A stretch of DNA of 64,000 nt. Source: Octopus vulgaris. Lineage: Eukaryota. Made by a program: the position numbers and the translations under genes. Positions 3,239-64,000 of the stretch are shown here, piece by piece. Where the stretch lies: NCBI GenBank assembly GCA_951406725.2, contig OX597830.1:23622001-23686000 (forward strand). The letters run 5' to 3'. The notes below the pieces were generated by a model. It ran no database searches and was not told the origin of the DNA. It worked only from the letters and a program-made list of their open reading frames with translations. Position 1 is the stretch's first letter, and each line of letters starts with the position of its first letter.

Positions 3239-4599
3239 TCTGTCATATATATATATATATATAATACAAAATGAGACAAGAACGGGGACAACAAAACATC
3301 CAGATAGACGAAAGAAAAAAACTAGGACGGGTCATTCGAAGTTTTTTCCTCAGTCAAGTACTAGATTATCTTCGCAATTTCAGCAGATTATACTTGAGAT
3401 TGCTCCAATCTGGTCAGCCCCAGGAAAAAAAACTAAGCTAAGAGCGTTAGATTCCTTGGAAGAAAGCAGCGAATGTATACAAAAACAAGGACGGAAAAAA
3501 ACGGGCAATGTTACACAAATACAATTAAAATAATAACAGGTCATAACAACAGGTGTCTTTCGACTACAGACGAATTAAATTAAGCTGGCGTGTGTGGAAA
3601 TGAAGCCTTACAGCAGGGATACAAGATTTCACAAACACAGGGAGGAATACGCTCTCACACATATATATGCTTGTGTGTGTGTGTATAAATGTTTGTAAGT
3701 GTGTTGAGCTAATAAGCATATTTACATTTTGAAGTACGTCTTAGGGGATTATGATGATGCCATTTTTTGCATAAAAGATTCCTCGAAGGCCTGGAACAGA
3801 GATTCTCGACGTCTAATGCCCATCACCTGTGACGTAATTAATTAATAAGGTATCACTGTACGCTGTTTCCTTTTCACTTTGGCTAATTCAATAGCAACCT
3901 ATTTTTATCGCAACGATATAAAGGCAAAAAGACATTTTCTTGATTTTTATGTCCGCAAATAATTAATATTTAACGAATATTTATTATACTACGATTGTTG
4001 GATTAAGGCAAGGAACAATAAGACAAGCAATTAAAAAGAGCACAGCTGGTGCTGTTAATAATTATAATGTCTTTGCCAAATTTCGGCAACCCAACGTTTG
4101 GACGCTTGTTAGACACACTCTCACTCACGCACCATGTTACCAGGTGTCAGTTTTGCGTTATCTTTGAGTTTTGTATTGTTAAGAACAAAAAACTATGTTC
4201 GTGGAATCAGGAATTTGAGAACTGGAGAAAAGCGAAGCTTGCTTTTAATAATAAATATGGCTACTCATCTTTGATGAAGATCCAACGAGTTGTGTGAGCC
4301 TCCATAAATATTTGAGCCTTGTTTTTGGCTTTTGTATTTGTTAAAAGACTAGAATCCGTGCTCAGAAATACAGAAATGTGAGAACTACAACAAAACAAGG
4401 ATTATTTTCGAAGGATATTTCTTTTCGAGAAAGATCCACGAGCTCTCGAGTGATGCCTGTTTAAATCTTTATGCTTTCTTTTAACTTTTGTATTTCTTAA
4501 GGATGAGAAACCATATTCACGAAGCTAGGAATGTGAGAACAATAGTTAAACGAAGAATGTTTAGCATGTAAGTTTAGGTATTTATTTATATTTTTATGA

Positions 4600-4890
4600 A
4601 GATCCACAAGCTGTCAAAGAAGACAATATTTATATTTCATCACATGATTGCGATCATTTTACAAATCGCAAATTCTTTTTGTTTTTCAAGTTCGAAATCT
4701 TTCAGGTCCGTGTTTTCTAAGAAAGGTTTTCATTTCCAGGGGTACTTATTGGTGTCCAAATCCGGAAAGTACTGCTCCAATGTAGAACAGTCTTTACAAG
4801 GGAATTTTCATAAACTCCAGTATAACAGGATTAGGATTAACTTCCTCTGCAAGTAATGAAAACATGCCAATTATTTCCCTTCCGAAATCA
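4600..4890 (-). mobile_element. hAT (Charlie/Buster-like) transposase C-terminal remnant
   Basis: Minus strand reads LEQYFPDLDTNKYPWK*KPFLENTDLKDFELEKQKEF, resembling the YFP...WIRNPF motif of Buster/ZBED-type transposases. Confidence 0.5.
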
Positions 4891-4947
4891 TAAAATACTC
4901 TACAGGGTCTTATAAATGAAATAGTCCACTCTCTCGTAGTCCTCTCA

Positions 4948-5033
<86 letters not shown>
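4948..5033. repeat. (TATC)n microsatellite
   Basis: Perfect tetranucleotide run. Confidence 0.95.
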
Positions 5034-5034
<1 letters not shown>

Positions 5035-5287
5035 CCCTCTCTTTCTCTATTTTTCTTTCTTTCTCTCCACCTCTGTCCTCTCTTCATTGGTCACTGCTTC
5101 AATTACCAAAGGTTGAAACTTCATTACCGAGTTTACCTGGATAGGAAACATTACGAAATATTCAAATGCTTTGTTTTAATCTTTAAAACCGTTCTCCCAT
5201 AAAAAAGACAAATATTTGTATAAGGTAATATATATGTATTTGTATACATAAGATAAATTTTTTTGCTCTCGCATTGTTATCACACCC

Positions 5288-5328
<41 letters not shown>

Positions 5329-5329
<1 letters not shown>

Positions 5330-5564
5330 ACCATGTTCTTAATGATGAAATTAACCTCTTTGTCTATATATCTACCCTCTTTGTAATGTTGGCAAATGAA
5401 TTAAGTATAAAAATATGCATTGTCCGTTTAATAAAAAAATTCTATATGTGACTGAAGATTGCTCGACATTTTAAAACTGATGTAATACTTACAGTGTTTA
5501 ATAAAATGAAGTAGCATGAAACGATTGTACTACACTACCTTGGATATCCTTGTTGCTTATTTTG
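5329..5564 (+). mobile_element. (TA)n-flanked non-coding element with hammerhead-like core and long stem II (family A, copy 1)
   Basis: CTGAAGA at 5452-5458, GAAA at 5518-5521 and GTA at 5527-5529; second copy at 23194-23429. Confidence 0.65.
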
Positions 5565-5619
<55 letters not shown>

Positions 5620-5770
5620 TATAGGTATATGTATATATATGTCTGTATATATGTATATATGTATAGATATATATGTACTGTTGTGTCTGGGGAGAGTCAT
5701 TTTCTTTTTGTGACTTATAATTTAACACACGAACTCACATAAAGAATCGTGCAAACCAAATCCCAAATCG

Positions 5771-5821
<51 letters not shown>

Positions 5822-6032
5822 CATAATTACAAAAGATAAGGAATTCCTATTTTATTTTATGTAATTTTCTGTGCGTATACCATACCATGAGGTTATCCTG
5901 AAATAGGAGTCGCTTATCTATTGGTAAATACCCCAAATTTGTAATAATAATATTATAAAATATACTTTTTACATTTCTTGAGAAAAGTGTAAAACAGTAA
6001 ACTTCCTGATAACCTGGAATATTTGTTATTCC

Positions 6033-6104
<72 letters not shown>

Positions 6105-6623
6105 CATATGGATGGATGGAATAATAGATGGAAGTACGGATGTGTGTATGCATGTGTATGTGTATGCAAGTTAAGCCGGTTCTATATTTCGAAATGAAGA
6201 CATTGTGTACAGAGTCAAAAATAAAACTTGTTGATTCGAAACGGCGAAGGAATCACATTCAAAAATTATTTTCTATTTAATCTGCAGACGTTATAGTATT
6301 GGTGTCTTTTTTCTTCGTACATACGTACGTACATGCATTCATACATACGTTTGTAGATACATACGTACATACTGATTCATCACACACACACACACACACA
6401 CACATACACACACTTAAACGTATATATAGATGTATATATATATATCTGTATATGCGTATATATGTTTAAGCTGGGTGTGTGTGTGCATACAGACACACAC
6501 ATTTACACGCACACAGACACATATATATATATATTTACATATGTTTATGTATATTTATACATGTTCATATATATATGTATATATATATATAAATACACAC
6601 CCAGACACACACACACATATATG

Positions 6624-6657
<34 letters not shown>

Positions 6658-6710
6658 TTATATATATACACATATATGTATATATGTATATATATATACA
6701 CATATATGTA

Positions 6711-6763
<53 letters not shown>

Positions 6764-6768
<5 letters not shown>

Positions 6769-6975
6769 TAATCCAAACATGAAAACACAAAGAGAAAACA
6801 CAACAACGCGAGGACGTGGAACAAGTATAGTATTATTGGACGCTCAGGAAAGAAGGGAAGAAGGAGGGTTTAACGTTTCGACCTGAGTTCTTCGTCAGAA
6901 ACATAGGAAAAGGATCGATCCAAAAAAGGGAAGACGGAGGAAAAAAATCACCAACGGTACACACGCCGTCACATG
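6764..6975 (-). mobile_element. (TA)n-adjacent small element with minimal hammerhead-like core
   Basis: Minus strand 6871-6898 reads CTGACGA-A-GAACTCAGGTC-GAAA-CGTTA; related to 12868-13067. Confidence 0.55.
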
Positions 6976-7201
6976 AATATTATCTATCTGTCTGTCTATC
7001 AGTGAATCAGTATGTCTGTCTATCCGTCCGTCCATCCGTCTGTCTGTTCGTCTGACTGTCTGTCTATATATACAAGTATATATGAATATATATATATACA
7101 AATATATATGAATATATTCAGAAATATATGAATATATGTATATTAATGATATATATATATGTATTATGTATATATGTATTTTATCTATATTTATATATAC
7201 A

Positions 7202-7600
7202 GGCGCAGGAGTGGCTGTGTGGTACGTAGCTTGCTAACCAACCACATGGTTCCGAGTTCAGCCCCACTGTGTCGCACCTTGGGCAAGTGTCTTCTGCTAT
7301 AGCCTCGGGCTGACCAATGCCCTGTGAGTGGATTTGGTAGACGGAAACTGAAAGAAGCCTGTCGTATATATGTATATATATGTATATATGTGTGTGTCTG
7401 TGTTTGTCCCCCTAGCATTGCTTGACAACCGATGCTGTTGTGTTTACGTCCCCGGTCACTTAGCGGTTCGGCAAAAGTGACCGATAGAATAAGTACTAGG
7501 CTTACAAAGAATAAGTCCCGTGGTCGATTTGCTCGACTAATGGCGGTGCTCCAGCATGGCCGCAGTCAAATAACTGAAACAAGTAAAAAAGTAAAAGAGT
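7202..7600 (+). mobile_element. SINE family B, full length
   Basis: Same head, body and GTAAAAGAG tail as the other copies. Confidence 0.9.
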
Positions 7601-7619
7601 ATGTATAAGTATATACATG

Positions 7620-7980
<361 letters not shown>

Positions 7981-8432
7981 AGACATACATCAGCGTTTTT
8001 ACATTATGTCTAGACAGATTTTGATACGGTGGTTTTATCTGCTTATTTTGATAATAACCACATTATCAATTTTCATCAATAGTTTTTTTTCTTTTCACAT
8101 GTTATTCATCTCATTAAAACATGTTCAGAATTAGCTTAATATGGAAATTTCTTTGGCTTTTAAATGTTTTTTTTTTTTTTTTTACTGTACTGTTTTATTT
8201 TTTACTGTTTTTATCGTATTTTTTTTTTTTTTTTTTGTATCTAGAATTTATTCGGTCAGAAATAGCGTAGGATTCTATATATGTGTTTTTCGACCTGCTA
8301 GAAATAGCAACCCATTCGCTCACAAATGAAAACCTGCTGTATAGAAGATGGAAGGATGCAGTGAAAAAAAAATATACCTAAAATACCCCAAAGAAACAAA
8401 CAAAAGAAAAAACAAAAAAACCAAGGCAGCCC

Positions 8433-9130
8433 CAGGCGTCGCTGTGTGATAAGAAAATTGCTTACCAACAACTTGGTTCCGGGTTCAGTAGTGATGCGCG
8501 GCACCTTGGCCAAGTGTCTTCTACTATCCTCGGACCGACCAAAGCCTTGTGAGTGGATCTGGTACATGGGAAGTGAAAGAAGTCCGTCATGTGTTTGTAT
8601 GTATGTATGTATGTATGTATGTATGTATGTATGTATGTATGTATGTACGTATGTATTATGTATGTATGTATGTATGTATGTGTGTATGTATGTAAGTATG
8701 TATATATGTATGTATCTATGTATGTATGAATGTATGTATGTGTGTAAGTATGTATGTACGAATGTATGAAAGTATATGTATGTAAGTATGTATATATGTA
8801 TGTATTTATGTATGTACGTATGTATGTACGTATGTATGTATGTATGTATTTATGTATGTATGTATGTATGTATGCATGTATGTATGTATGTATGTATAGC
8901 TATGTGTAATTTTTTTGTCTATGTATGTTCCCACCACAGCTTGACAACCGGTGTTCGTGCGTTTGCGTCCCTGTAACTTAGCGGTCCAGCACAACAGACC
9001 GACTGAATAAGTATCAGGTTCCAGAAAAAGAACTGAGTATTGGGGTCGATATGTTTGTCTAAAATGTTCTTGAAGGTGGTGCTCCAGCATGGCCGCAGTC
9101 TAATGGCTGAAACCAGTATGAAATAAAATA
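8433..9130 (+). mobile_element. Older SINE family B copy with expanded internal (TATG)n
   Basis: Head at about 8433 and 3' part at 8915-9125, separated by about 300 bp of TATG. Confidence 0.8.
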
Positions 9131-9623
9131 AAACATAAAAGATTTTGCGACATGGCTATAGCATAGGTCTGCTCAGGAGCTTAAACGATAAGCATAACAA
9201 CAATAACAGTGATGACGGTTGTAATGACAGTAGTGATGACAATGACAGCTTGACGTCGACGACAACCACGATGACGACTGCAGCAACACGTATAGAGAAG
9301 ACATTGTTTAAGAAAATTTTTATCTTACGTCTTTGGTCAGTAAGTGTAATTTCCTATTTGCTTCTATCTAGAAATCAATGGATATGGCTACTATTCCATT
9401 TGAATTTTGCTTTTGTGACTTGGACATCAATGTTTTGAAACTGACTAATTTTCCATTACATCTCAGATAGATTCAACGCTGAGTTGCAGAAGCAGAAATA
9501 TCATTATAGCAAATATTTTGCTCAATATCACAGATCTGTTTGCCAGTTGCTTGATCTTAACCGCTTGAGCATGTCCCTTAGTGGTTGACAATATGTGCAT
9601 CTCTGATAATAAGCATGATAATA

Positions 9624-9993
9624 GGCGCAGGAGTGGCTGTGTGGTAAGTAGCTTGCTAACCAACCACATTGTTCCGGGTTCAGTCCCACTGCGTGGCATC
9701 TTGGGCAAGTGTCTTCTGCTATAGCCCCGGGCCGACCAATGCCTTGTGAGTGGATTTGGTAGAAGCCTGTCGTATATATATATGTGTGTGTGTTTGTGTG
9801 TCTGTGATTGTCCCCCTAGCATTGCTTGACAACTGATCCTGGTGTGTTTACGTTCCCCGTAACTTAGCGGTTCGGCAAAAGACCGATAGAATAAGTACTG
9901 GGCTTACAAAGAATAAGTCCCGGGTCGATTTGCTCGACTAAAGGCGGTGCTCCAGCATGGCCACAGTCACATGACTGAAACAAGTAAAAGAGT
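9624..9993 (+). mobile_element. SINE family B
   Basis: Matches the 7202 copy apart from a small internal deletion. Confidence 0.9.
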
Positions 9994-10684
9994 ATGTCTT
10001 AAGAGAGATTCTTTGTGGTTTGAATAAATCTAACAAAGGCAAATTTTGAAGAAAATAGTTTTAAATACTTTCTAAGGATAAACAGATAGGAAATAACGGT
10101 TTCTACTCACGGACAAAGATCGTGTTACAATGTGTTATCATAAATAAATTTAGATTTGAAGTGAGATGAAACAAAACCATGTTTCAATCCAGTGGTTATT
10201 ATAGGTATCGGGAACAACTATGAGGATCAGAAGGCGCGAAGTCAGCATGTTTAATAATGGTTGTGGCACAAGACTAGCAATTTTTAGGGAGATGGGAATT
10301 TCGATATCGCCGAACTCAGTTTTTTTTAGAACAGAACTGTTTTATGGATCACAGAGGCATGAAAGGCAAAACACAACCGCCCAGATACTGTTATGTGAGA
10401 CCACAAGAGAAAACAAAACATTCTCGGTTGTGAAAACCAGCTGATCTTTGGACACTAATCTAGTCAGGAAAATACAGGGGAAAGAGAACATTTATGGACC
10501 ATTGGTAAAGAGTTTACTAATCTGGTACTCGAGATACATTTTCTATTTCATACCTATTACTATTACAACAAGAAGGATAGGCGCCACTTCATTTGGAGTA
10601 AAGCACGGTAAAGTCATAAGACCGGGGATTCAATTCCTTGAAGCAATGGATCGTTGTGTGTCTATCCTTGAGCAAGGCACGCGA

Positions 10685-12085
10685 TTTTTCAGTTGTAAGT
10701 TTCCTGAAGAACCTCTGCACCGGAGCTATTTGGTTGGGAACCAAACTTCTTACCACACAGTAGCGCCTGCGCCTACACATGCACACACACACACACACAC
10801 ACATGCACACACGCACACACATGCACACACACACACATGCACACACGCACACACACGCACACACACGCACACACTCACACACACACACACACGCACACAC
10901 ACGCACACACACGCACATACACGCACACACACACACTCACACACACACACGCGCACGCACACACACGCGCACACACGCACACACAGACGTACACACGCAC
11001 ATACACTTACACATGGACACATATCAGGAAAAATTCTTCGTAAAGTCGCAGCGTTTTAGGCAGACAACAAAAGTACTATGTGTTATATGAAGATCTTAAA
11101 AGTTTGTTATATATTTCCGTATATGCACATTATTTGAATAAATAAAAAAGAAAATTTTCGAATTGAAAATTATTAATTATATAAGTCTTTAGAAAGAATT
11201 TTTTAAAGACTAGATTAATGTAGATTTAAAGATGTTTTTATAATTAAAATGTAAAAAGCTTTTATGTAATTTATCATTGATGATTTAAAACATTTTTTTT
11301 TTAATATTGTAACGTTGCGACTTCACGAAGAAGTTTTTTCTGATATGTGTACATGTGTGTGTGTGGAGGCGCAATGGCCCAGTGGTTAGGGCAGCGAACT
11401 CGCGGTCGTAGGATCGCGGTTTCGATTCCCAGACCGGGCGTTGTGAGTGTTTATTGAGCGAAAACAGCTAAAGCTCCACGACGCTCCGGCAGGGGGTGGT
11501 GGTGATCCCTGCTGTACTCTTTCGCCACAACTTTCTCTCACTCTTACTTCCTGTTTCTGTTGTACCTGTATTTCAAAGGGCCGGCCTTGTCTCTCTCTGT
11601 GTCACGCTGAATATCCCCGAGAACTACGTTAAGGGTACACGTGTCTGTGGAGTGCTCAGCCACTTAAACGTTAATTTCACGAGCAGGCTGTTCCGTTGAT
11701 TCGGATCAACCGGAACTCTCGTCGTCGTAACCGACGGAGTGCTTCCACATGTGTATGTGTGTGCGTGTGTATGTGTATGTGCGTGTGTATGTGTATGCGT
11801 ATGTATGTTCGCGTGTGTGTGTGTATGTGTGTGTAGGCGCAGGCGCTGCTGTGTGGTAAGAAATCTTTTATCATCACTCATTAATATCATCCTGTTCATC
11901 ATTCATCTCATCTCATTAATGTTTTTGTCCAGCCCGCAGATTTTCCATCTGTGTACGGCTTTCATAGCCATTTTAATGAAATAAGGAAGTTTGGTTCCCA
12001 ATCAAATAGCTCCGGACTCAGTCCCACTTCGGTGGAGATTCGCCTGTCGGCGCAGAGGTTCTTCAGGAAACTTACGACTGAAAAA
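10685..12085. repeat. Large interrupted inverted duplication (foldback)
   Basis: 10685-11056 is the reverse complement of 11311-12085 once insertions in the right arm are removed. Confidence 0.75.
11364..11745 (+). mobile_element. SINE family C (GTGGAGGCGCAATGGCCCAGTGG head) with a family D-type tail
   Basis: Head matches 24634 and 29381(-); tail TGTATTTCAAAGGG...CGTAACCGACGGAG matches 43027-43345. Confidence 0.85.
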
Positions 12086-12380
12086 TTATCGGAAATCATA
12101 CTCACACACACACAAACACCTATGGTTCGATTCCTGCTTCGGGTTTAATCGTAATAAAGGAATTCCTTTTGTGTCTCATCCCTTCCTGTTATTTCATCTC
12201 CCTCCACGTTCACACTCCAAGACAGGAATCCCTAAAATATATGTGTAAATTCCATCATTTCTTGTATCGTGACTTACCTGAACATCTTGAGTATCTACAC
12301 ACTAAACTAGTTTTCACCATGGTATCGATTACACGTTATTCCAACAGCCAACACTAACCTATGAATATATATATACATAT

Positions 12381-12766
12381 ACTCTTTTACTCTTTTACTT
12401 GTTTCAGTCATTTGACTGCGGCCATGCTGGAGCACCGCCTTTAGTCGAGCAACTCGACACCGGGACTTATTCTTTGTAAGCCCAGTACTTATTCTATCGG
12501 TCTCTTTGCCGAAACGCTAAATGACGGGGACATAAACACAGCCGCATCGGTTGTCAAGCAATGCTAGGGAGACAAACACAGACACACAAACACGCATGCA
12601 CACACATATATATATATACATATATACGACGGGCTTCTTTCAGTTTCCGTCTACCAAATCCACTCACAAGGCTTTGGCTGGCCCGATGCTATAGTAGAAG
12701 ACACTTGCCCAAGGTGCCACACAGTGGGACTGAACCCGGAACCATGTGGTTGGTAAGCAAGCTACT

Positions 12767-12767
<1 letters not shown>
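12381..12767 (-). mobile_element. SINE family B
   Basis: Reverse complement of the 7202 copy, lacking the extreme 5' end. Confidence 0.9.
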
Positions 12768-12854
<87 letters not shown>

Positions 12855-12867
12855 TATATATATATAT

Positions 12868-13067
12868 ACAGGGAGAGTTTACGAAAAAAACAAAAGATGA
12901 AGACAGGTGGTGTACAAAATAAACAGTTGTATTAGTATAACGCCCAGGAATAGAAAAAGTGTTTTACGTTTCGAGCCTACGCTCTTCTACAGAAAGGGAC
13001 ACAGAAATAACAAGGAGAGAAACAAAGAGAGAAAAAAAGTGTGTAGTGGCTAACGATCTATCATGGC
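12868..13067 (-). mobile_element. (TA)n-flanked small element with variant hammerhead core
   Basis: Minus strand 12965-12992 reads CTGTAGA-A-GAGC-GTAG-GCTC-GAAA-CGTA. Confidence 0.55.
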
Positions 13068-13106
<39 letters not shown>

Positions 13107-14179
13107 TATATACATATATATATATATATACATATATATACATATATATATATAATTATATATATATATATATATATATGTATATGCTTTCATGCATACA
13201 TACATATATGTGTACATCTTCGCATACTGTACGTATTTAACGTGAAAACTGTGTAAATGATTTCAACCGAAATAATTTATACTTTATAACATGTAGTAAA
13301 TAGTGTTTCACTCGGACTTTGTAATCGACTTCTCTCTCTCTCTCTTTCTCTCTCCTTCTCTCCTCCACACTCTCTATCTCTCTTCATATATGTATATATA
13401 TTCACATATACATATACGCACACGCGCGTGCACACATATTCCTTGGTGTGCGTGTGTGTATGTATAAGGAAAGAGAAAATAATAACGTAAGAGACAGATG
13501 GGCATCCGCCGTTTGCTCTTTCTGTCTTTGTCGACCCTCTCAGTCTCCCCTCCTCTCTCTCACTCTCTCTCATTCTCTCTCCCCCTCTCTCTCTATCTCT
13601 ATATCTATCTGTCTATTTATCTATCTGTCTATCTATCTGTCTGTATCTACTTTACCTTCACAATTTGTGCGTATGTGTGTATGTATATATGTGTATGTTG
13701 AAAAAGGACAGAAAATTAGATAGATTGGACAAACATATACCAAAACTAGAACGATTAATCAATAGATAATCTGAATAATATATCTACATTCAACCACAGA
13801 CTATGGAACCTTCTGTTAACTTCAAAATTCGATCGTCATTGATGCAATAATATAACAGCAAAACCTTCATTTGATTACTGACTGAGTGTTGACCTCACGG
13901 CCTTCCCACCTAATGTTCAAGACTGCTTTAATTGCAACTAAAGATTTCAGAAATTACATACACGGCTATGATAAAATGACTTCTTGAGACCGGAAGTAGT
14001 TTCATGAACGGCGGATGTGGCTTCTGCGATGGTGTATTGGTGACACTATGACGGTGAGTGGGGTGATGGCGTGTGGTGTAATGATGCAAAATTTCATTGA
14101 AAGCAGACGATCTGTTAATTATTCACTGCTCTTTGTTCATTTAGATAAAAAGGCCTACCGTCTTTCTTCCCCACCCTCG

Positions 14180-16200
<2,021 letters not shown>

Positions 16201-16984
16201 TAACGTATGCAGCATCACACTCATGGCGTCCCGCTCTTTCACAAACTCATCTTTACACATTCCTCGTCGTCAAAGTCTTCTTCCCAGATAAGTTTGTGAG
16301 TTTGTCAAACAAGACTCGGCGGAAGTGTTACAAATCTTTGGCAGACATGTACATCCGGAGAAAGGCTACGGCTAGATTACAGAGACGCTAAAGCTTTTTC
16401 AGGAGATCTAGATGTAATTAATTAACGATTCATTAATTAGATTACAAAAATCAATTAGACGAATCGTTTCGTTGCAGACGCATCCTTTCTTCTTTTCCAA
16501 TAGATACGTATCGTACGAAGTCCGCTCCCAAATCGTCAAGATGTGTATGTTCAGATATGTGTGTATGTTATTATAGTAAGTGTGCAATAATAGAGTCATG
16601 TGCGAATGTTTAAATCAGTGGATATTTTTTTTCTGTCACAAAGGTGTGCCGGGCGGAGTACGTAAGTGTGCCGCCGAATTTTATCAATATATCTGAAGGC
16701 TTGAACTTCTTCGAAGATCATAATTTTATTATACGCAAGGGTGATTAATGAAATGAGATAAACAATAAATTTTCTTTCTTTCTGCTTGTTTCGGTCCTTT
16801 GGCTGCGACCATGCTGGGGCACCGCCTTGAAAAATTTTTAGTCAAACTTTGTATAAAGCCTGGTACTTATTCTATCGGGTATTGTTGCCGAACCGCTAGA
16901 TTTTGGGGGCGTAAACACAGACACCACCACTATATATATATACATGTATAGTGTATATATATCTATCTATCTATATATCTATCA

Positions 16985-17057
<73 letters not shown>

Positions 17058-17116
17058 GGCGGTGCCCCAGCATGGCCACAGCTCATTAGCTGAAACTAGA
17101 AAATCATATATATATA

Positions 17117-17257
17117 TGGGTGCAGGACGTCACCAACAGTAAACAACATGAAATACGAAAACAAGAGAGTTAAATACGCAAATAACGAGAGAAAAACGGG
17201 ACAAGAAATACAAGGAATGACCCTTCATCACTTGTCGGCTGTCTTCTCCATTTCGAG

Positions 17258-17260
<3 letters not shown>
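17117..17260. mobile_element. (TA)n-flanked unclassified repeat; related inverted copy at 56045-56201
   Basis: GGGTGCAGGACGTCAC...CCCTTCATCACTTGTCGGCTGTC matches the reverse complement of 56045-56201. Confidence 0.6.
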
Positions 17261-17307
<47 letters not shown>

Positions 17308-17399
17308 TTTACCAGCAGACTATCATCCCGTATCAGCTGTTAGAGGTAGCAAATGGGTTCGTGTCCTGCAGTTTACTACTGGTTGTCTTTCTATCCAAG

Positions 17400-18060
17400 G
17401 GTGGTCTGGTTGTGACTACCTTGTCGATCAACAGACGTGTAGTGTGTAATATTATCCAAAGATTTGCGACTGATAGGTCCCGATACATTATGTAATACCA
17501 GGAAGCGCTCTACGAAACGGTCAAGTGTTAGTTCATTACCTGGAACAATGCTAATCGCTCAGAAGGCCTGAGCAGTGTATCAATCTTCAACGGAGGCCCA
17601 TATACGCCCTTGAAATCTGTACAGACGCTACGGTGCACTCGCCATGTGGACTTTTGTTGCAGCCTTCCTTCGATATCTCTAAATTTAGCAAAGCTCGATC
17701 AAGTTTTGAAAGGATGGAGACATGTCTGTTGAGTCTTGTTGGGTGATTCTAACAATGAAGTTAGAGTGGTATCATGAAAAGATACCATATTTGATCAACA
17801 ATAACGGCCTTGCTTGTACTATAAATTGTGGTGTGATATGTACGTCGCACTCACCAAACTCTATCGATGCAGTTTTTTTTCCCTCCGATATCAATGCTGC
17901 AAATGCGGTGCTCATCTCTGGTCAATCAATGTCTATCCTGTCTAGTAACATTTTAATATTCCATTGATCCAGACAAAGGCTTTTGCGCATCATAGAGAAA
18001 TTCTCTCTGTTGTTCAGAGCCGGAGACAGCCAGCTCGATCTTTGGTAACGAGAGTGGCGA
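17400..18060 (-). mobile_element. Possible highly decayed RTE-like reverse transcriptase remnant
   Basis: Minus-strand fragments REFLYD, MLLDR, KKT, TLLRPSE and LDRF occur in the order expected for RTE RT domain 5 onward; very degenerate. Confidence 0.35.
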
Positions 18061-18310
18061 ACGATCCTGCCAGCTTCTAAATCCCGCGCACGCTTGCGTA
18101 AATGTGTGTGCGTGACGACTATTTTTATTAGGGTGATATATTTTCTATCGTTCGAACAATTGCCGTGACAACAATCTCATTAGTGTAACAAGCGGTTTTA
18201 TTCGTGCGACGATGCTTTTTATTGATGTGCCAATAATCTTAATGTGTAAAATGTTTCTAATTTGTGTTACAACTGCTTTTATGAGTCAGCCAATAATGCT
18301 TAATAGTGTA

Positions 18311-19120
18311 AGGCGGCGAAAAGCTGGCAGAAACGTTAGCACGCCGGACGAAATGCGTAGCCGTATTCCGTCTGCCGTTACGTTCTGAGTTCAAATTCCA
18401 CCGAGGTCGACTTTGCCTTTCATCCTTTCGGGGTCGATTAAATAAGTACCAGTTACGCACTGGGGTCGATATAATCGAATTAATCCGTTTGTCTGTCCTT
18501 GTTTGCCCCCTCTGTGTGTAGCCCCTTGTGGGTAGTAAAGAAATAGGTATTTCGTCTGCTTGTTACGTTCTGAGTTCAAATTCCGCCGAGGTCGACTTTG
18601 CCTTTCAACCTTTCGGGGTCGATAGATTAAGTACCAGTTACGCACTGGGGTCGATGTAATGGAATTAATCCGTTTGTCTGGCCTTGTTTGTTCCCTCTAT
18701 GTTTAGCCCCTTGTGGGCAATAAAGAAATAAGAAACGTTAGCACGGCGGGCGAAATGCTTAGAGATATTTCGTCTGCCGCTACGTTCTGAGTTCAAATTC
18801 CGCCGAGGTCCACTTTGACTTTCATCCTTTCGGGGTCGATTAAATAAGTACCAGTTACGCACTGGGGTCGATACAATAAACTTAATCCGTTTGTCTGTCC
18901 TTGTTTGTCCCTTCTGTGTTTAGCCCCTTGTGGGTAGTAAAGAAATGGGTATTTCGTCCGTCTTTACGTTCTGCGTTCAAATTCTGCCGAAGTCGACTTC
19001 GCCTTTCATCTTTCGGAGTCGATAGATTAAGTACCAGTTGCGTACTTGGGTTGATCAAATCGACTGGTCCCCTCCTCCCGACATATTTCGGGCCTTGTAC
19101 CTAGCGTAGAAAAGAATAAT
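18311..19120 (+). mobile_element. SINE family M tetrameric array
   Basis: Units restart at about 18547, 18731 and 18948; the final unit has the alternative tail. Confidence 0.9.
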
Positions 19121-19906: not shown

Positions 19907-20409
19907 GTTGTGTATTTAATTTATAATGCAAGTTAAGCGAAAATTTAATGGCGACGCCTGGAGTTTAAAGTAGCACAACGAGGTAAACATACAGAGTGAA
20001 ATGATAAAGAAATGTGTTTTTCATAATGAAATTAACGAAAATAACAACTTGATATTTTTTTTAAATATCATTTTGTTCGATTTTTGAACCTAGAAACGAT
20101 CTTAATTTCCTTAATTTAATAAGCCAAAATTGCGCGTGGAATTAAGAATCAATATGTATGATTATGAAGAATAGGTTTTTCTTTTAACGAAATTATGACA
20201 ATTTTATATTCTAAGATGTATTTTAATTTTCCATTTAAAAACATATAAATAATTCAATGATCATTAAGATTTTTTTCTTTTTTTGTTTTACGAAATGAGA
20301 AACATTTTGTGGTCGTACGATCAATTCGCTTGTCAGATAAATTCATTTGATTCTTTCTGATGTGATTTGAATTCTTCGAGTCAAGACCCGGTGATTTCCT
20401 TTTACTGAA

Positions 20410-21357
20410 GGGACAACGCCTAAAATTTTTGGGGAGGGGACTAGTCGACCCCAGTGTTTCACTGGTACTTAATTCATCGACCCCGAAAGGATGAAAGGCA
20501 AAGTCGACCTCGGCGGAATTCGAAATCAGAAAGGTAACGGCAGACGAAATACTGCTAAGCATTTCGACAGTGTGCTAACGATTCTTTTCTACTCAAGGCA
20601 CAAGGCCTGACATTTTGAGGGAGGAGGCCAGTCGATTTGATCGACGCCAGTATGTAACTGGTACTTAATTTATCGACCCAGGAAGGATGAAATGGAAAGT
20701 CGACTTCGGCGGAATTTGAACTCAGAACCTAGCGGCAGACAGAATACCTGTTTCTTTATTACCCACAAGGGGCTAAACATAAAAGGGACAAACAAGGACA
20801 GACAAGTGGATTAAGTCGATTATATCGACCCCAGTGCGTAACTGGTGCTTATTCAATCGACTTCGAAATGATGAAAGGCAATTTCGACATTGGCGGAATT
20901 TGAACTCAGAAGGTAACGGCAGACGAAATACCTATTTCTATTTCTTTATTACCCACAAGGGGCTAAACACAGAGCGGACAAACAAGGACAGACATAGGTA
21001 TTAAGTCGATTACATCGACCCCAGTGCGTAACTGGTACTTAATTTATCGACCCCGAAAGGATGAAAGGCAAAGTCGACCTCGGCGGAATTTGGACTCAGA
21101 AAGTAGCGGCAAACGAAATACCTATTTCTTTACTACCCACAAGGGGCTAAACACAGAGAGGACAAACAAGGACAGACATACGAATTAAGTCGATTATATC
21201 GGCCCCAGTGCGTAACTAGTACTTATTTAATCGACCCCGAAAGAATGAAAGGCAAAGTCGACCTCGGCGGAATTCGAAATCAGAAAGGTAACGGCAGACG
21301 AAATACCGCTAAACATTTCGCCCAGCGTGCTAACGTCTCTGCCAGCTCGCCGCCTTG
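20410..21357 (-). mobile_element. SINE family M multimeric array, about 5 units
   Basis: Reverse complement of the family M head, body and both tail types. Confidence 0.9.
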
Positions 21358-25450: not shown

Positions 25451-25529
25451 AATAACTTTGTTTTAAACGCATTTTCAAACAGAAATCTCAGTCGGGATCA
25501 AAATATGAGAAGGACATTGCATTAGTGAG

Positions 25530-25932
25530 CAGAAACGTTAGCACGCCGGGCGAAATGTTTAGCGGTATTTCATCTGCGTGTTACGTTCTGAGTTCAAATT
25601 CCGCCGAGGTCGACTTTGCTTTTCATCCTTTCGGAGTCGATAAATTAAGTACCAGTCGCGCACTGGGGTCGATGTAATCGACTTAATCCGTTCGTCTCTC
25701 CTTGTTTGTCCTCTCTGTGTTTAGCCCCTTGTGGGTAGTAAAGAAATAGGTATTTCGTCTGCCGCTACGTTCTGAGTTCAAATTCCGCCGAGGTCGACTT
25801 TGCTTTTCATCCTTTCGGGGTCGATAAATTAAGTACCAATCGCGCTCTGGGGTCGATGTAATCGACTTAATCCCTTTGTCTGCCATTGTTTCTCCTCTCT
25901 ATATCTAGCCCCTTGTGGGCAATTAAGAAATA
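25530..25932 (+). mobile_element. SINE family M dimer
   Basis: Two body plus tail units, junction at about 25749. Confidence 0.88.
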
Positions 25933-28685: not shown

Positions 28686-29052
28686 CAGCAGCAGCAGTAG
28701 TAGTAGTAGTAGTTGTAGTAGTAGTGGTGGTGGTGGTGGTGGTGGTAGTAGTAGCAGTAGTAGTAGTAGTAGTAGTAGTAGTAGTCATTGCGGTAATTAA
28801 AGCTGTTAGTGGAAGCGATGTTTTGAGATGCTATTGTGGAAATTTAAGGTAAAAAAAAAATAACCGCAAAAAAGTTGAAAACGGAAAGGAAAAAGGAAAA
28901 AATAACAGCAACCGTCGTAACAACAACAACTACAACTACAACAACAACAACAGCAGCAGCATCGACAGCAACAACAACAACAGTAACAGCTCCAGCAGCA
29001 CCAGTAACTATGTTAGTGGTGTGACATGCAAACGGAATATTGAAGGGAAGAA

Positions 29053-29285
29053 AGGCGGCAAGCTAGCAGAAACGTTAGCACGCCGGGCGAAATGCTTAGC
29101 GGTATTTCGTCTGCGTTACGTTCTGAGTTCAAATTCCGCCGAGGTCAACTTTGCCTTTCATCCTTTCGGGGTCGATAAATTAAGTACCAGTTACGCACTG
29201 AGGTCGATGTAATCGACTTAATACCTACGTCTGTCCTTGTTTGTCCCCTCTATGTTTAGCCCCTTGTGGGTAATAAAGAAATAGG
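29053..29285 (+). mobile_element. SINE family M monomer with 15-bp target-site duplication
   Basis: TATTGAAGGGAAGAA at 29038-29052 and TATTGAAGGGAGGAA at 29286-29300. Confidence 0.92.
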
Positions 29286-30185: not shown

Positions 30186-30999
30186 ATGTGTGTGTGTGTG
30201 TGCGTGTGTGTGTGTGTGTGTGTGCGCGCGCGCGCGTGTGGGTGTGTTAGAGAATGGAATAAGCACAGCTAGAGCACATACGAAGACTGAAAGTGTCTTT
30301 GAGGAGGTCAGAGTTGTGTGACGAAAGATTTGTGGATAATGGATATGAGTTAAATTAAGTAATTTAACAGTAATAAACGAGTGAAGAACGAATATATCGT
30401 GCGTGTGTGTATTTGGCAAAAAAAAATAAAGTCGAAAATGACCACCCCGAAATGCAACAATAAATAAATATATAAAAATATATATAAATAATATAAGTGA
30501 GAGGGGAAGAGAAAGGAGAAGGAGATTCATATAGGAAAGGCATGTTATCACTGTTTTGATTTGATAATGATGATAATGGTTATAATAGTGATAAGAGTAA
30601 CTGACGGCAAGGTATCTTCTGGACACGAGAGAACGGCAACAATAGCGAAAATGATGATGACGATGATGATGACGACGACGCCGCCTCCGTTTTCTTTATT
30701 TAAGCACTAAGGATTGACAAAACCATTGAGGACAGTACAAGACGATGCCGCGTGGGATTAGATAAAAGTTCCTGTAAAAATATAAAATAACAAAATCGAA
30801 GAAACTGAAGGCTTAAGCGAGCTGCAGACGTGGTTGTGGGGGTGAGAAAGTTTGCTTACCTACAAAATGGTTCCGGGTCTAACTTTTGTTCATTGTCACC
30901 GTTGTCCACTCATACGTCTGTTTATCATCAGCGACAATGCCTAAAGACGCCATGGTGTGGTTGTTTGCCGCAGGTTTGACCTCCTAACCGTTAGAACAT

Positions 31000-31725
31000 G
31001 TTTCTTATTTCTATACTACCCATAAGGGGCTACACACAGAGGGGACAGACAAGGACAGATAAACGGATTAAGTCGATTATATCGACCCCAGTGCGTAACT
31101 GGTACTTATTTAATCGACCACGAAAGGAACAAAGGCAAAGTCGACCTCGGCGGAATTTGAACTCAGAACCTAACGGCAGACGAAATACCTATTTCTTTAC
31201 TGTCCACAAGAGGCTACACACAGAGAGGACAAACGGATTAAGTCGATTATATCGTCCCCAGTGCGTAACTGGTACTTATTTAATCGACCCCGAAAGGGTA
31301 AAGGCAAAGTTGACCTCGGCGGAATTTGAACTCAGAACGTAGACACGAAACAGAACACATTTCCCCAACTCTCTAATACGATTAGATGTTTCATAGAGAA
31401 TATATGGCGGTCAGGAAGTTGTAGACACTTCTGCTCAACGTTTGACATCGAACGTTCTGCCAATTTTAAAGTGAAACTAACCGCCTTGCTTCTAAGTTCT
31501 CTCAGAGTTTCTTAGGGCTAAACATAGAGGGGACAAACAAGGGCAGACAAAGTAATTAAGACGATTACATCGACTCCAGTGCGTAACTGGTACTTAATTT
31601 ATCGACCCCGAAAGGATGAAAGGCAAAGTCGACCTCGGCGAAATTTGAACTCAGAATGTAACGGCAGACGAAATACCGCTAGCAATTTCGCCCGGCGTGC
31701 TAACGTTTCTGCCAGCTCCCCGCCT
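31000..31725 (-). mobile_element. SINE family M copies (31000-31345 dimer; 31515-31725 monomer)
   Basis: Family M body and tail on the minus strand. Confidence 0.85.
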
Positions 31726-32059
31726 TCTTCTTTCGGGGTTTCTACCCATCTGCAAGTCTTATCTGAACCAAACTTTTAACACCTTAACCGAGCGCATGCC
31801 AATCATTAGACGACGCTATTCCACATATTCGTCTCTCAAGGTTCCGATACACAAGTTCACGTCGTGGCGCTGCTTAATGAATGCTTTCTGGGATTTCTGC
31901 CTTATGTTGCCGACCACCTCGAGTTTCGATGTATGCAACACAATGACGGTCACGCCGTACCATTTGAACGGATGCTTATCAACATCTCCAGCATCCACAA
32001 TTAGAGTTCAAGCTAAAACATACGGAAAAGTCGAGTGGGGGAATCTTTGCTCGACCAAG

Positions 32060-48029: not shown

Positions 48030-48763
48030 TTTCAAATTTTGGCACAAGGCCAGTAAATTCTGGGAGAGGGGTTAAATTGATAACATCAACCCCAGTATTC
48101 AACTGGTATTTATTTCATCGACCTCGAAATTATGAAAAGCAAGGTTGATCTCGACGGAATTTGAACTCAGAACGTAAGGACGGACGAAATACTAAGCATT
48201 TAACCCGATGTGCTAACGATTCTGCCACGTTGCTACCTTTAATAAAATAGAGATTTGATTACATCAACCCCAGTACTCAACTGTTACTTATTTTATCGGC
48301 CGAGAAAGGATAAAAGTCAATGCATTTCGCCTGGCGTACTAACGATTCTTATTTCTTTATGGCTCACATGGGGCTAAACATAGAGGGGACAAACAAGGAC
48401 AGACAAAGGAATTAAGTCGATTATATCGACACCAGTGCGTAACTGGTACTTAATTTATCGACGCCGCAAGGATGAAAGGCAAAGTCGACCTCGACGGAAT
48501 TTGAACTCAGAACGTAACGGCAAACAAAATACCTTTTTCTCTACTACCCACAAGGGGCTAAACACAAATGGGACAAACAAGGACAGACAAACGGATTAAG
48601 TCGATTACATCGACCCCAGTGCGTAACTGGTACTTAATTTATTGACGCCGAAAGGATAAAAGGCAAAGTCGACCTCGGCGGAATTTGAACTCAGAACGTA
48701 GCGGCAGACGAAATACGACTACGCATTTCGCCCGGCGTGCTAACGTTTCTGCCAGCTCGCCTT
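48030..48763 (-). mobile_element. SINE family M array
   Basis: Several body and tail units on the minus strand. Confidence 0.88.
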
Positions 48764-49204
48764 CTTTAGCAAATATATTAATAACTGCATTTAGAATACA
48801 CAACCCATGAGGCTGAAAAGATTGCGGGCAGATATTTTCTTTCGTGGTCAAGCACTCATCAATTTTTTAAGTGGAGGGAGAGAATTTGCACAAAATGTTG
48901 GTGACTGGTGAGAACACTTAAGAGGAACGGACATATTTTAAACATGCAGCATTTGACGGGAGAAGAACTGTTGGCCAAGAACTCATGACTACAGTGCTCG
49001 GGGTTAACTTCGATTACATGACTGGCCCCAGTTGGAGGCTCTTCCTATATAAGGAGGAAAACTTTATCCGTATATTTTTTGTATGCGTTTCATATAATGT
49101 TTTCCTCAAACGATTTTATGAAACCCTCTCCTCACAAATTGCAGCCATTCTTTGTCATTTGACGTCTCCGTGTCAAATAAAAGTCATCATAATCATCGTT
49201 GTCA

Positions 49205-61545: not shown

Positions 61546-62057
61546 ATGATGATGATGATGGTGGTGGTGGTGATGGTGATGTTGATTATAGTAAATAAAA
61601 TAAATGCATAAAATAAGTGGATGGTGCCGGTGCTGATGGTCATGGTGTCAGTGGCGGTGTTGGTGATTTTTGATGGTGATGACGGCGGTGATTATGTTGG
61701 TTGTAGTGGTTTAGGTGTCGGTGGTAGTGGTGGTGGTGGTGGTGGTGGTGGTGGTGGTGGTGGTGGTGGTGGTGGTGGTTTAGGCGGTAGTGACGGTATG
61801 GGTAATGATATTGCGTGACATTCATGCGTTTTTCTTGAACGATATTAGCAACGTGAATTAAGTGAAAACAGCAAAAACGGGGGACTAGAGAGAGAGAGAG
61901 AGAGGGGGGAGGGAGAGAGAGAGAGAGAGAGAGAGAAGGAGAAGGTGGATGAGCGAAAGAAGCAGAGGGAGAAGGGAGAGATAGGTAAAGCCGAGAATAA
62001 AACGGACGGAGACATAAGGAGGGGAGCAAGATAGATAGATAGATAGATAGATAGATA

Positions 62058-63151
62058 TGTTTCTTTATTAGCCACACAGGGCTGCACACAGATAGAACAA
62101 ATTACAAGGTAGAGCTTTTCTTTTGAAGGTTTAAGAAAGAAAAAAAAAAAAAAAAAAAAAGGAAGGGGGAGTTTCGATCAAAAGGGATCGTAAAAGGAGA
62201 GAAAGAGGACAAAAAAAAGGGGGGTTTAAAAAAAAAGGGGGGGGAAATTGATCAATAGGGATCGTTATCACAGAAATGTCAATATGAAGTGTAAAGGGGA
62301 GGACAGGTGAGGTTTACCCGTGCAAAGAAAAGCCTACGGAAAAGACCACGGTAACCTCGGTCAATGATGTCACATTTTATATTTCTTTTTTTTTTTTTTG
62401 CAAATAAGCAACTCTCTGTTTTCGATTTCTAGGTTCATAGGACTATGCTCAATGTGGCTTCGTCATTCATACGTGCCATTCTTGCTACATTCACCCATCT
62501 TTTTTTAAAACATTCGCTAGACAAAACTTGCCTCTCTACTCTCACTTTCCTTTTCAAGTGGTACTTGAAGAAGTTGATGAGAGATTGACCAGAGAGGAAA
62601 GTGTTTGTCTCCAATCCTTTCAGACGCGTCCACCAGATACATTCTTTCGCCATAGCCACAAGGATGATGAAAATAGCTCTTCCTTCCCGTTTGAAGGAAG
62701 GAGGCGTGACAATATTGACGATAGACTCAGCTGATAAACCGACTCGTCCCACACGTGACAGCAGTTGTTCGACATAAGCCCACAGGTCGGAAATTGTTGG
62801 ACACTGAACGAGTGCGTGCAGAACGGTTTCGTCGCTCTGACCGCATCTCGGGCAGGTCGGCCCCGTGTTTCTCGAGCCGTGTCTGTAGAGCTTATCCCGA
62901 ACGGGTAGCGCTTCTCGGTAGCACTGCCAGGCCAGGGATCTCTGGAAGTTGTCCATGGGCCCTGGCCCGAAAGTCGTCCTGAACAGGCGGGTCAGGTACT
63001 CCTCGTCGACGTCCAGGTTCGCCCCGAGCTCGTCGTCGTACCTCCCCTCCACTAAACCCCTATAGAATGCTTTAGTTGTGTTGAAGTCACTTAAGGTCGA
63101 CCCAGGACGGCAGAGTTGCTTGAGAGCAACGCGACACTCGCGGTGCCATTC
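62058..63151 (-). mobile_element. 5'-truncated Tx1/L1-clade LINE (ORF2 C-terminus plus 3' UTR) inside (GATA)n
   Basis: Open frame plus a T-rich 3' UTR ending AATAAAGAAACA; GATA runs at 62029-62057 and from 63152. Confidence 0.85.
62435..63151 (-). CDS. LINE ORF2 C-terminal fragment with zf-RVT zinc-binding domain (partial, no true start codon)
   Basis: TKAFYRGL...WQCYREALPVRDKLYRHG...CPRCGQSDETVLHALVQCP...AKECIWWTR; the frame is uninterrupted up to the truncation point. Confidence 0.85.
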   Translation of the reverse strand, partial: EWHRECRVALKQLCRPGSTLSDFNTTKAFYRGLVEGRYDDELGANLDVDEEYLTRLFRTTFGPGPMDNFQRSLAWQCYREALPVRDKLYRHGSRNTGPTCPRCGQSDETVLHALVQCPTISDLWAYVEQLLSRVGRVGLSAESIVNIVTPPSFKREGRAIFIILVAMAKECIWWTRLKGLETNTFLSGQSLINFFKYHLKRKVRVERQVLSSECFKKRWVNVARMARMNDEATLSIVL

Positions 63152-63485
<334 letters not shown>

Positions 63486-64000
63486 AAAGAAACAGGGAGA
63501 GAGGTGGAGAAAATATTTTGTTAATTTAAATCCGTTGTTCCTAACTGGGTTTCGTATGATGACCCTTGGGGATCCATATAAGAATTTGTCGTTAAAATTT
63601 GTGTGCAATAAATCGCTTATAATATTCCTACAAAACACAAAATATTCCAGCAATTTTAAAAATAAAATTCCTAATAATATTTAATCAGAAAATTACAATA
63701 TAATAGGATTTCTTGAACATCAAATGGGTATGAGAGTCCACCGGAATAAAATAGGAATCAGAGAGATTCATGAGTATAAAACGGTTGAGGGCCACTGTTT
63801 TAAGTAAACTGGAATAACGGGTGTGGAATATGGATGTCAAATTAACCAGCGTCCTCAACGTGGATTAGTTTAGTGCATGTTGCTATTGCACCCACCTCTC
63901 TGGCTCTGTAACAGGTACCATGATGTGGTTCATGATGAACAGTCTAGTCAAGTCCACCCCACAATAAGCTCATCAGACCCGTTACATCATCTATGAACCC

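What the first reader, a model, noticed from the sequence alone, without database searches (positions are those of the whole stretch)
62058..62109. Tx1-like LINE and the dominant SINE share a 3' tail: candidate LINE-SINE partnership
Seen: the LINE 3' end (minus strand) CCTTGTAATTTGTTCTATCTGTGTGCAGCCCTGTGTGGCTAATAAAGAAACA aligns by eye with the family M SINE tail CCTTG---TTTGTCCCCTCTGTGTGTAGCCCCTTGTGGGTAATAAAGAAATA (composite of local copies such as 18497-18545 and 29236-29283) at about 41 of 49 positions. Both can form a terminal stem-loop (AGCC/GGCT and GCCC/GGGT). Known: SINEs borrow 3' tails from the LINE that mobilises them, commonly CR1, L2 or RTE, while mammalian L1 relies on poly(A). 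Inference: this SINE subfamily is mobilised by a stringent, tail-recognising Tx1-clade LINE. I do not know whether this pair has been described.
Basis: partly seen in the sequence, partly recalled or inferred. Interest (0 to 1): 0.8.

Follow-up and report, generated by a model that had tools for sequence, protein, structure and literature searches.

The report
Octopus SINE carries a Tx1-LINE tail
A young, truncated copy of a long jumping gene in an octopus-type genome ends in the same ~50 bases, with a similar small predicted RNA hairpin, as a very common short jumping element, which likely means the short element took its end from this Tx1-type LINE group and is likely copied by its enzyme, a pairing common for other LINE groups.

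Summary
The match is real. The last 52 nt of a 5'-truncated LINE (62058-63151, minus strand) match one tail type (T1) of the local SINE at 34-40 of 49 positions in 18 copies; 0 of 5000 shuffles score as high. The ORF's nearest full relatives resemble octopus RTs that a published tree files as L1-Tx1 (indirect link). The copy is under 1% from its family majority, while its tail differs from the SINE majority at 10 of 44 positions (SINE copies average 3.2), so it is probably not a stray SINE piece. All three SINE tail types and the LINE share a 4-bp hairpin with a C[CU..GU]G loop, and the stems covary. An old Tx1 relic in the window ends in a weaker, similar tail.

Not shown: that other copies carry the tail (the read tool masked those bases), or that recognition is stringent. 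The hairpin is no more stable than shuffles. The LINE sits in (TATC)n, and 0 of 6 free SINE ends do. Best reading: the tail came from the octopus Tx1 radiation, probably a sibling family. No such animal pair turned up in ten searches; Repbase and Dfam were not searchable.

The parts
62058..63151 (-). 5'-truncated, young non-LTR retrotransposon copy (L1-Tx1 group): end of ORF2, 3' UTR and tail
62435..63151 (-). Open C-terminal 238 codons of ORF2 plus stop; zf-RVT (CCHC) domain at about 62780-62938
   Evidence: Pfam PF13966 E 2.5e-8; 59-70% identity to five longer relatives, four with an RT domain
62110..62434 (-). Pyrimidine-rich 3' UTR with A and U runs; shared by many family copies at least down to about 62175
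   Evidence: 62158-62434 covered in 4 of 4 runs; 61990-62174 masked as repeat
62058..62109 (-). Tail shared with the T1 SINE subfamily; includes a predicted hairpin AGCC-CTGTGT-GGCT (62070-62083) and AATAAA (62064-62069)
62029..62057 (-). (TATC)7 directly after the tail: target microsatellite or terminal repeat
63152..63490 (-). (TATC)~85 directly before the truncated 5' end
29052..29283 (+). Solitary full-length SINE with T1 tail, B-box-like GTTCAAATTC at 29127, 15-bp target duplication
18310..19110 (+). SINE tetramer: three T1 units then a T2-tailed unit, bracketed by a perfect 18-bp duplication
30936..31953 (-). Old, broken relic of a related LINE (late RT and thumb region), interrupted by two T1 SINE insertions (31514-31726 and 31006-31341)
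   Evidence: tblastn E 7.6e-5; pieces at 0/60, 3/200 and 13/200 shuffles; TSDs
30691..30741 (-). Degenerate T1-like tail about 200 bp past the relic's last traced codon, after a U-rich stretch; suggestive second LINE copy of the tail
   Evidence: best non-SINE match in the window; 1 of 2000 shuffles

Best explanation
A young, 5'-truncated LINE copy ends in the same ~50 bases as the T1 subfamily of the local SINE; this stretch is likely the true 3' end of an octopus Tx1-group LINE, and the SINE likely gained it by tail exchange and is likely copied in trans by the ORF2 enzyme of a sibling Tx1 family. Shown: the sequence match, a single insertion between two (TATC)n arrays, 9-16 bp duplications at 4 of 6 free T1 ends, and a 4-bp hairpin with a C[CU..GU]G loop 12-16 nt from the end in the LINE and in all three SINE tail types, with covarying stems. 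Inferred: Pol III makes SINE RNA from the internal promoter. Tx1 ORF2p binds the terminal hairpin as it would its own RNA, nicks DNA with its APE endonuclease, and primes reverse transcription on a few bases of microhomology, because neither element has a poly(A) tail. The partner is probably not this copy's own family but one of the dozens of related octopus Tx1 families.
For: Match beyond chance. The copy differs from the family majority at about 5 of ~625 covered bases in run X2 (table 3) and its ORF is open, so its tail should reflect its source RNA. That tail differs from the T1 majority at 10 of 44 positions, against a mean of 3.2 (max 8) for 18 SINE copies (binomial P 0.001), and from every copy at 9 or more. 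The element is flanked by (TATC)n on both sides, with no duplication of the tail's start at the 5' junction. T1, T2 and T3 share head and body, and about 49 of the ~65 T1-specific bases are the LINE-like stretch. The hairpin scan found 18 sites with a stem of 4 bp or more, against 1.75 in shuffled windows, and all 18 are retroposon ends. Pairs 1-3 switch G-U/C-G/C-G (T1), A-U/G-C/G-C (T2), U-A/G-C/G-C (intact T3 copy) and A-U/G-C/C-G (LINE). A second, old Tx1 relic is followed by the best non-SINE tail match in the window. Octopus RTs that match relative P0003 at about 75% by eye are classed L1-Tx1 in PMC10294476.
Against: Family-wide presence of the tail is untested (masked it; searches found no usable copy). 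The hairpin is not more stable than shuffles. Three random substitutions keep some 4-bp stem 49% of the time, or 2.4% with the loop motif, which was defined after the fact. The LINE loop (CUGUGU) differs from the SINE loop (CUUGU), and in L2 elements the loop sets specificity (PMC4176376, passages). The LINE lies in (TATC)n, which is 0.7% of the window, while 0 of 5 complete free T1 ends and the truncated copy at 31514 do. 13 of 18 T1 tails are internal to multimers, and the tetramer at 18310 carries its duplication around a T2 end. The relic's tail needs a ~0.9 kb internal deletion, its ORF end was not recovered (160 of 200 shuffles as good), and its stem has 3 of 4 pairs. The window fragment has no RT of its own.
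Confidence: 0.55

Rival explanations
1. Reverse direction: the hairpin tail belongs to the SINEs and to a partner of another clade (RTE-BovB, CR1/L2 or Dong-R4), and a Tx1 lineage captured a T1-like end by recombination. The LINE and SINE would then share a tail without being partners.
For: The CUUGU loop is identical across T1, T2 and T3 but not in this LINE. T2 and T3 ends have clear 16-19 bp duplications starting with AAT and do not match the LINE upstream of the hairpin. RTE, Dong-R4 and CR1 are all recently active in O. vulgaris (PMC13282606, part 1 of 3).
Against: The tail has LINE-type features (a U-rich lead-in and AATAAA), whereas the majority of SINE copies read AGTAAA (11 of 18 with G at that place). 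An old Tx1 relic also ends in a similar tail. No such other LINE was seen in this window (none was searched for with a profile).
Confidence: 0.2
2. Single-locus chimera: a SINE tail fragment already lay in the microsatellite and the LINE landed beside it, or reverse transcription began on a SINE RNA and switched to LINE RNA.
For: An A-rich run (AAAAGAAAAG, 62117-62126) just before the tail could be a decayed end. The junction was not covered. About 900 SINE families are reported for O. vulgaris, so an unsampled subfamily could match exactly.
Against: A young copy should carry a near-consensus SINE tail, but it differs at 9-13 of 44 positions from all 18 local copies plus a 3-nt insertion. No SINE body lies upstream of it. 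The 5' junction is pure (TATC)n with no duplicated tail start. Without the tail the LINE would have no AATAAA at its end.
Confidence: 0.12
3. The tail is Tx1-derived but recognition is loose: Tx1 (or any local LINE) moves these RNAs by microhomology priming, and the tail is a passenger carried mainly inside SINE multimers.
For: The hairpin is weak. 13 of 18 T1 tails are internal. One T1 copy with most of its hairpin missing has a 16-bp duplication (31514-31726). Free ends show short matches to their targets.
Against: Stems covary across tail types around a fixed loop, and all 5 changes at the outer T1 pair's 3' base are U to C, which keep the pair. There is no poly(A) tail for a relaxed mechanism to use.
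Confidence: 0.12
4. Chance similarity of two U- and A-rich ends.
For: The stretch is short and compositionally biased.
Against: 0 of 5000 dinucleotide shuffles reach the score, and both sequences end at the same base.
Confidence: 0.01

Closest known systems
Stringent LINE/SINE tail pairs (UnaL2/UnaSINE1, ZfL2, CR1 and RTE pairs; table of 58 SINEs in PMC3747384; loop recognition in PMC4176376)
   Same: A ~50-nt common 3' end with a terminal stem-loop, and tail exchange on a shared SINE body.
   Different: Listed animal partners are L2, CR1, L3, RTE, Crack, Rex1, Vingi and I; none is L1 or Tx1. Here the stem is only 4 bp and there is no functional test.
Plant and algal L1-clade tail pairs (maize ZmSINE2/3 with LINE1-1_ZM; Chlamydomonas SINEX-3 with L1-1_CR; PMC3472496, PMC3747384)
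   Same: L1-superfamily LINE, ~50-nt shared end, hairpin with variable compensating stem and conserved loop.
   Different: Those are green-lineage L1s, which those papers report as almost all ending in poly(A). This is an animal Tx1-group element with no poly(A).
Crocodilian SINEU and Tx1-Mar (PMC4494074)
   Same: A SINE inferred to be moved by Tx1-clade LINEs; tandem insertions; target preference for repeats.
   Different: SINEU has snRNA heads and poly(A). The link rests on shared targets and 5' heads, and no LINE sharing the SINEU-1 3' end was found. Here the link is the 3' tail and the targets differ.
Microsatellite-targeting Tx1 families Kibi (TC)n, Koshi (TTC)n and crocodilian (TTCC)n/(TTTC)n families (PMC4494074)
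   Same: A Tx1-group copy inside a microsatellite.
   Different: The repeat is (TATC)n, and one copy cannot show specificity.
Octopus tRNA-derived SINEs OK, OR1, OR2 (Ohshima and Okada 1994; seen only as cited in PMC4824008 and PMC4758252)
   Same: An abundant octopus SINE with a B-box-like motif.
   Different: I could not obtain their sequences, so identity with any of them is untested. The body does not resemble the Meta-domain rows I saw (part 1 of 4).

Membership tests
L1-Tx1 non-LTR retrotransposon | ORF2 with APE endonuclease, RT and C-terminal CCHC finger | tested here: met
   The window holds only the CCHC part. Relatives of ~1150 aa carry PF03372, PF00078 and PF13966. Best solved match of relative P0008 is human L1 ORF2p, E 9e-69, against R2 at 5e-16 (the hit list held no full-length ORF2 of another APE-type clade).
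L1-Tx1 non-LTR retrotransposon | RT groups with Tx1 rather than L1 proper or other clades | tested here: inconclusive
   My tree had no labelled references. Indirect: P0003 (65% to the window protein) matches O.bimaculoides_9_LINE at about 75% of 157 RT residues by eye. That cluster is classed L1-Tx1 and is listed among 36 O. sinensis clusters near Tx1_XT, Koshi and Keno, apart from L1 (PDF label order, not topology).
L1-Tx1 non-LTR retrotransposon | Target-sequence preference (many, not all, Tx1 families) | tested here: inconclusive
   One copy in (TATC)n, which is 0.7% of the window. The relic is not in (TATC)n.
tRNA-derived SINE | Short interspersed repeat with target duplications | tested here: met
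   About 30 units in 64 kb. Duplications of 9-19 bp at 7 of the 14 SINE units examined; one further unit scores 9 only through an internal tail repeat; 3 of 182 mismatched flank pairs score 9 or more and 0 score 11 or more.
tRNA-derived SINE | tRNA-related head with A and B boxes | tested here: inconclusive
   B-box-like motif found and my A-box pattern not matched. No tRNA from ARAGORN or Rfam.
Stringent LINE/SINE pair | Common 3' end sequence | tested here: met
   (one LINE copy)
Stringent LINE/SINE pair | The tail is the family-wide end of the LINE | tested here: inconclusive
   Masked; weak second copy at 30691-30741.
Stringent LINE/SINE pair | Conserved terminal stem-loop with compensatory changes | tested here: inconclusive
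   Covariation across four tail types, but no folding advantage over shuffles and a different loop length in the LINE.
Stringent LINE/SINE pair | Same insertion signature and overlapping ages | tested here: not met
   For this copy's family: (TATC)n against 0 of 6 free T1 ends; copy under 1% from its majority against 6.8% mean for T1 units. Older relatives exist (85-95% alike contigs), so a sibling family is not excluded.
Stringent LINE/SINE pair | ORF2p moves the SINE RNA in trans and needs the tail | not testable with these tools
   Needs a cell assay.

The most novel reading that the evidence does not exclude
The octopus SINE burst as a whole (tail types T1, T2 and T3) was powered by the octopus Tx1 radiation. 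These Tx1 families read a poly(A)-less terminal hairpin with a C[CU..GU]G loop, and the SINE hopped between families by swapping tails. This would be an animal L1-superfamily LINE with stringent tail recognition, fitting the proposal that stringency is ancestral in the L1 superfamily and was lost in mammals.
Probability: 0.3. Interest if true: 0.72.

Novelty: new variant of a known kind. Interest (0 to 1): 0.5.

Why it matters
The 2012-13 surveys found only three SINEs with L1-clade tails among more than 800 L1-clade families, all in plants and a green alga, and proposed that strict tail recognition was ancestral and lost in mammals (PMC3472496, PMC3747384). An animal Tx1 element that shares a structured, poly(A)-less end with a SINE would supply an animal test case. 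It would also name an engine for part of the octopus SINE expansion (11.6% of the O. vulgaris genome, PMC13282606). The mechanism class itself is textbook, so the gain is a new clade pairing and not a new kind of system.

Tried and rejected
Searches for other LINE copies with DNA failed. The metagenome scan gave one locus, L001, whose sequence is an unrelated gene and a false hit. Genome contigs gave nothing, viral contigs gave nothing, and plasmids and phages gave nothing. Read laying (4 of 24 listed runs, chosen as four organism labels) showed zero depth over 61990-62157, but the tool skipped 61990-62174 as repeats, so this says nothing for or against the tail.

Supplements: the O. vulgaris transcriptome file was unreadable (84 characters). 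A second file gave 0 hits even for the SINE control motif, so it is uninformative. The SINEBase supplements were not available. In PMC10294476 I searched 24 of 33 files, with long sequence runs cut, and found no tail motif. Unseen supplements and Repbase/Dfam entries may already describe this pair.

Earlier scan notes: 5 answered look-ups, four empty and one on another genome that did not bear on this. My first guess that the SINE body is a Meta-domain was dropped. The ESM atlas gave only unnamed RT clusters. An apparent ORF-end motif in the relic, seen by eye, failed the shuffle test. One search was a script error, rerun.

Full report
Source. The window is from an octopod, most likely Octopus. 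Named relatives of the ORF are from Argonauta hians (59%) and O. bimaculoides (83% over a short piece).

The LINE. On the minus strand, 63151-62438 is an open frame of 238 codons with a zf-RVT domain (E 2.5e-8), followed by a stop, a 325-nt pyrimidine-rich UTR and the 52-nt tail. It is bracketed by (TATC)~85 and (TATC)7. Five longer relatives are 59-70% identical, four of them with an RT domain, and more distant ones are ~1150-aa proteins with APE, RT and zf-RVT domains whose best solved match is human L1 ORF2p. In the supplements of PMC10294476, octopus RT rows carry the same DQSKAFDRVDH stretch. One of them matches relative P0003 at about 75% of 157 residues by eye, is classed L1-Tx1, and is listed in a run of 36 O. 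sinensis and 2 O. bimaculoides clusters near Tx1_XT, Koshi and Keno (label order from a PDF). The Tx1 call is therefore two steps removed; my own tree had no labelled references. Contigs of four public runs under four organism labels cover the ORF end and UTR densely (3887-18393 contigs each). In run X2 the majority letter differs from this copy at about 5 of ~625 bases, so the family is high-copy and this copy is young. The tool skipped 61990-62174 as repeats, so the junction to the tail was not examined.

The match. The 18 best non-self hits of the tail in the window are all SINE tails (36-55 against a background of 28 or less). 0 of 5000 shuffles reach the score. Over the last 44 nt the LINE differs from the SINE majority at 10 positions, while the copies differ at 1-8 (mean 3.2; P 0.001), and it differs from every single copy at 9-13. 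A young copy with a tail this far from the SINE is best read as carrying its own lineage's end. The flanks agree with one insertion into one microsatellite.

The SINE. About 30 units share a head and body but end in at least three tails. Only T1 matches the LINE over ~50 nt, and that stretch is about 49 of the ~65 bases that make T1 distinct, as expected from tail exchange. T1 units are 6.8% from their majority on average. 13 of 18 T1 tails are followed at once by another SINE unit, mostly starting at position 52 or 19, and 5 are free ends. Among the 5 free ends and one truncated copy, four have duplications (15, 16, 12 and 9 bp) and two have none. Three T2 or T3 ends have 16-19 bp duplications. 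Of 182 mismatched flank pairs, 3 scored 9 or more and none scored 11. None of the six T1 ends lies in (TATC)n, which is 0.7% of the window.

The hairpin. Folding does not single it out (8 sequences, z -1.23 to +0.47). A scan for a stem closed by C-G around a CU..GU loop, a motif defined after seeing the tails, gave 18 sites with four or more pairs, against 1.75 in shuffled windows; all are SINE ends or the LINE end. Across T1, T2, T3 and the LINE the three outer pairs change on both sides while the closing pair and the loop stay nearly fixed. 16 of 18 T1, 3 of 5 T2 and 1 of 3 T3 copies keep all four pairs. This is four lineages, not many events. Three random changes in the T1 block keep some 4-bp stem 49% of the time and the loop motif 2.4% of the time. 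The LINE's loop is one base longer than the SINE's.

A second copy. An old relic of a related LINE lies at 31953-30936 (E 7.6e-5; pieces at 0/60, 3/200 and 13/200 shuffles) and is interrupted by two T1 SINE insertions. About 200 bp past its last traced codon, after a U-rich stretch, lies the best non-SINE match to the tail in the window (30691-30741; 1 of 2000 shuffles for the LINE tail, 4 of 2000 for the SINE tail). This needs a ~0.9 kb internal deletion, and the ORF end was not recovered (160 of 200 shuffles as good). It is suggestive only.

Mechanism. Most likely (0.55) the T1 tail was taken from the 3' end of an octopus Tx1 family and SINE RNA is copied in trans by Tx1 ORF2p, which binds the terminal hairpin and primes on short microhomology. 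The sequence match, single insertion, duplications and covariation are shown; RNA binding and trans-mobilisation are inferred from L2 work (PMC4176376). The 20% tail difference, the loop difference, the age gap and the (TATC)n target point to a sibling family as the working partner. Rivals: tail capture by Tx1 with another clade as partner (0.2), a single-locus chimera (0.12), and a passenger tail with loose recognition (0.12).

What is known. PMC3747384 (passages, and part 1 of 2 of the tables section) and PMC3472496 (passages) list 58 tail-sharing SINEs, only three with L1-clade tails, all in plants or algae. PMC4494074 (passages and section 16) links SINEU to Tx1-Mar by target and 5' head, not by tail. 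PMC4758252, PMC4824008, PMC5786205, PMC3531059, PMC8967140, PMC9115989, PMC10294476, PMC13295347 and PMC4176376 were read as passages, and PMC13282606 as part 1 of 3 plus a supplement search; none of what I saw describes an octopus or other animal SINE with a Tx1 tail. Ten full-text searches found no such report. Ohshima and Okada 1994 and Kojima and Fujiwara 2004 were seen only as citations. Repbase, Dfam, SINEBase sequences and several supplements could not be seen and may hold it.

Verdict. A real shared tail and a probable new clade pairing of a known mechanism. The family-wide tail and the stringency are still untested. Interest 0.5.

Noticed in passing
window 302-1103, 18310-19110, 20400-21356, 25528-25932, 31006-31341, 48350-48767: The SINE forms head-to-tail multimers with recurring junctions: the T1 tail followed by position 52 (GGTATT) or position 19 (AGAAAC). 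Three arrays end in a T2-type unit. Some free T1 ends also begin their flank with these letters, which suggests read-through RNAs that prime on the SINE's own head and so build more multimers.
   Followed up: partly
window 30691-31953 (-): Old Tx1-like relic holding two T1 SINE insertions within about 170 bp, with duplications starting AGAAAC and GAAA; it may be an internally deleted derivative.
   Followed up: partly
window 1081, 19085, 20605, 42090 (T2); 48049, 54210, 57680 (T3); approximate: Two other tail types on the same SINE body, with the same CUUGU loop and 16-19 bp duplications starting AAT; their source LINE is unknown.
   Followed up: partly
window 1955, 7491, 16869: A further repeat shares the AAGTAC(T/C)AG motif but has a different 3' part ending in a CAGTC-AAAT-GACTG-like hairpin and AAGTAAAAGAG; probably another SINE family with another partner.
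   Followed up: no
window 62029-62057 and 63152-63490: The LINE sits in (TATC)n, a microsatellite not among the Tx1 targets named in PMC4494074; possibly a new target specificity.
   Followed up: partly
protein P0004: A relative 63% identical to the window protein is deposited under a Herbaspirillum metagenome-assembled genome, probably host DNA in a bacterial bin.
   Followed up: no
protein P0006: A predicted O. bimaculoides Rho-GEF model starts with about 45 residues of this LINE's ORF2, either a mis-predicted or a captured exon.
   Followed up: no
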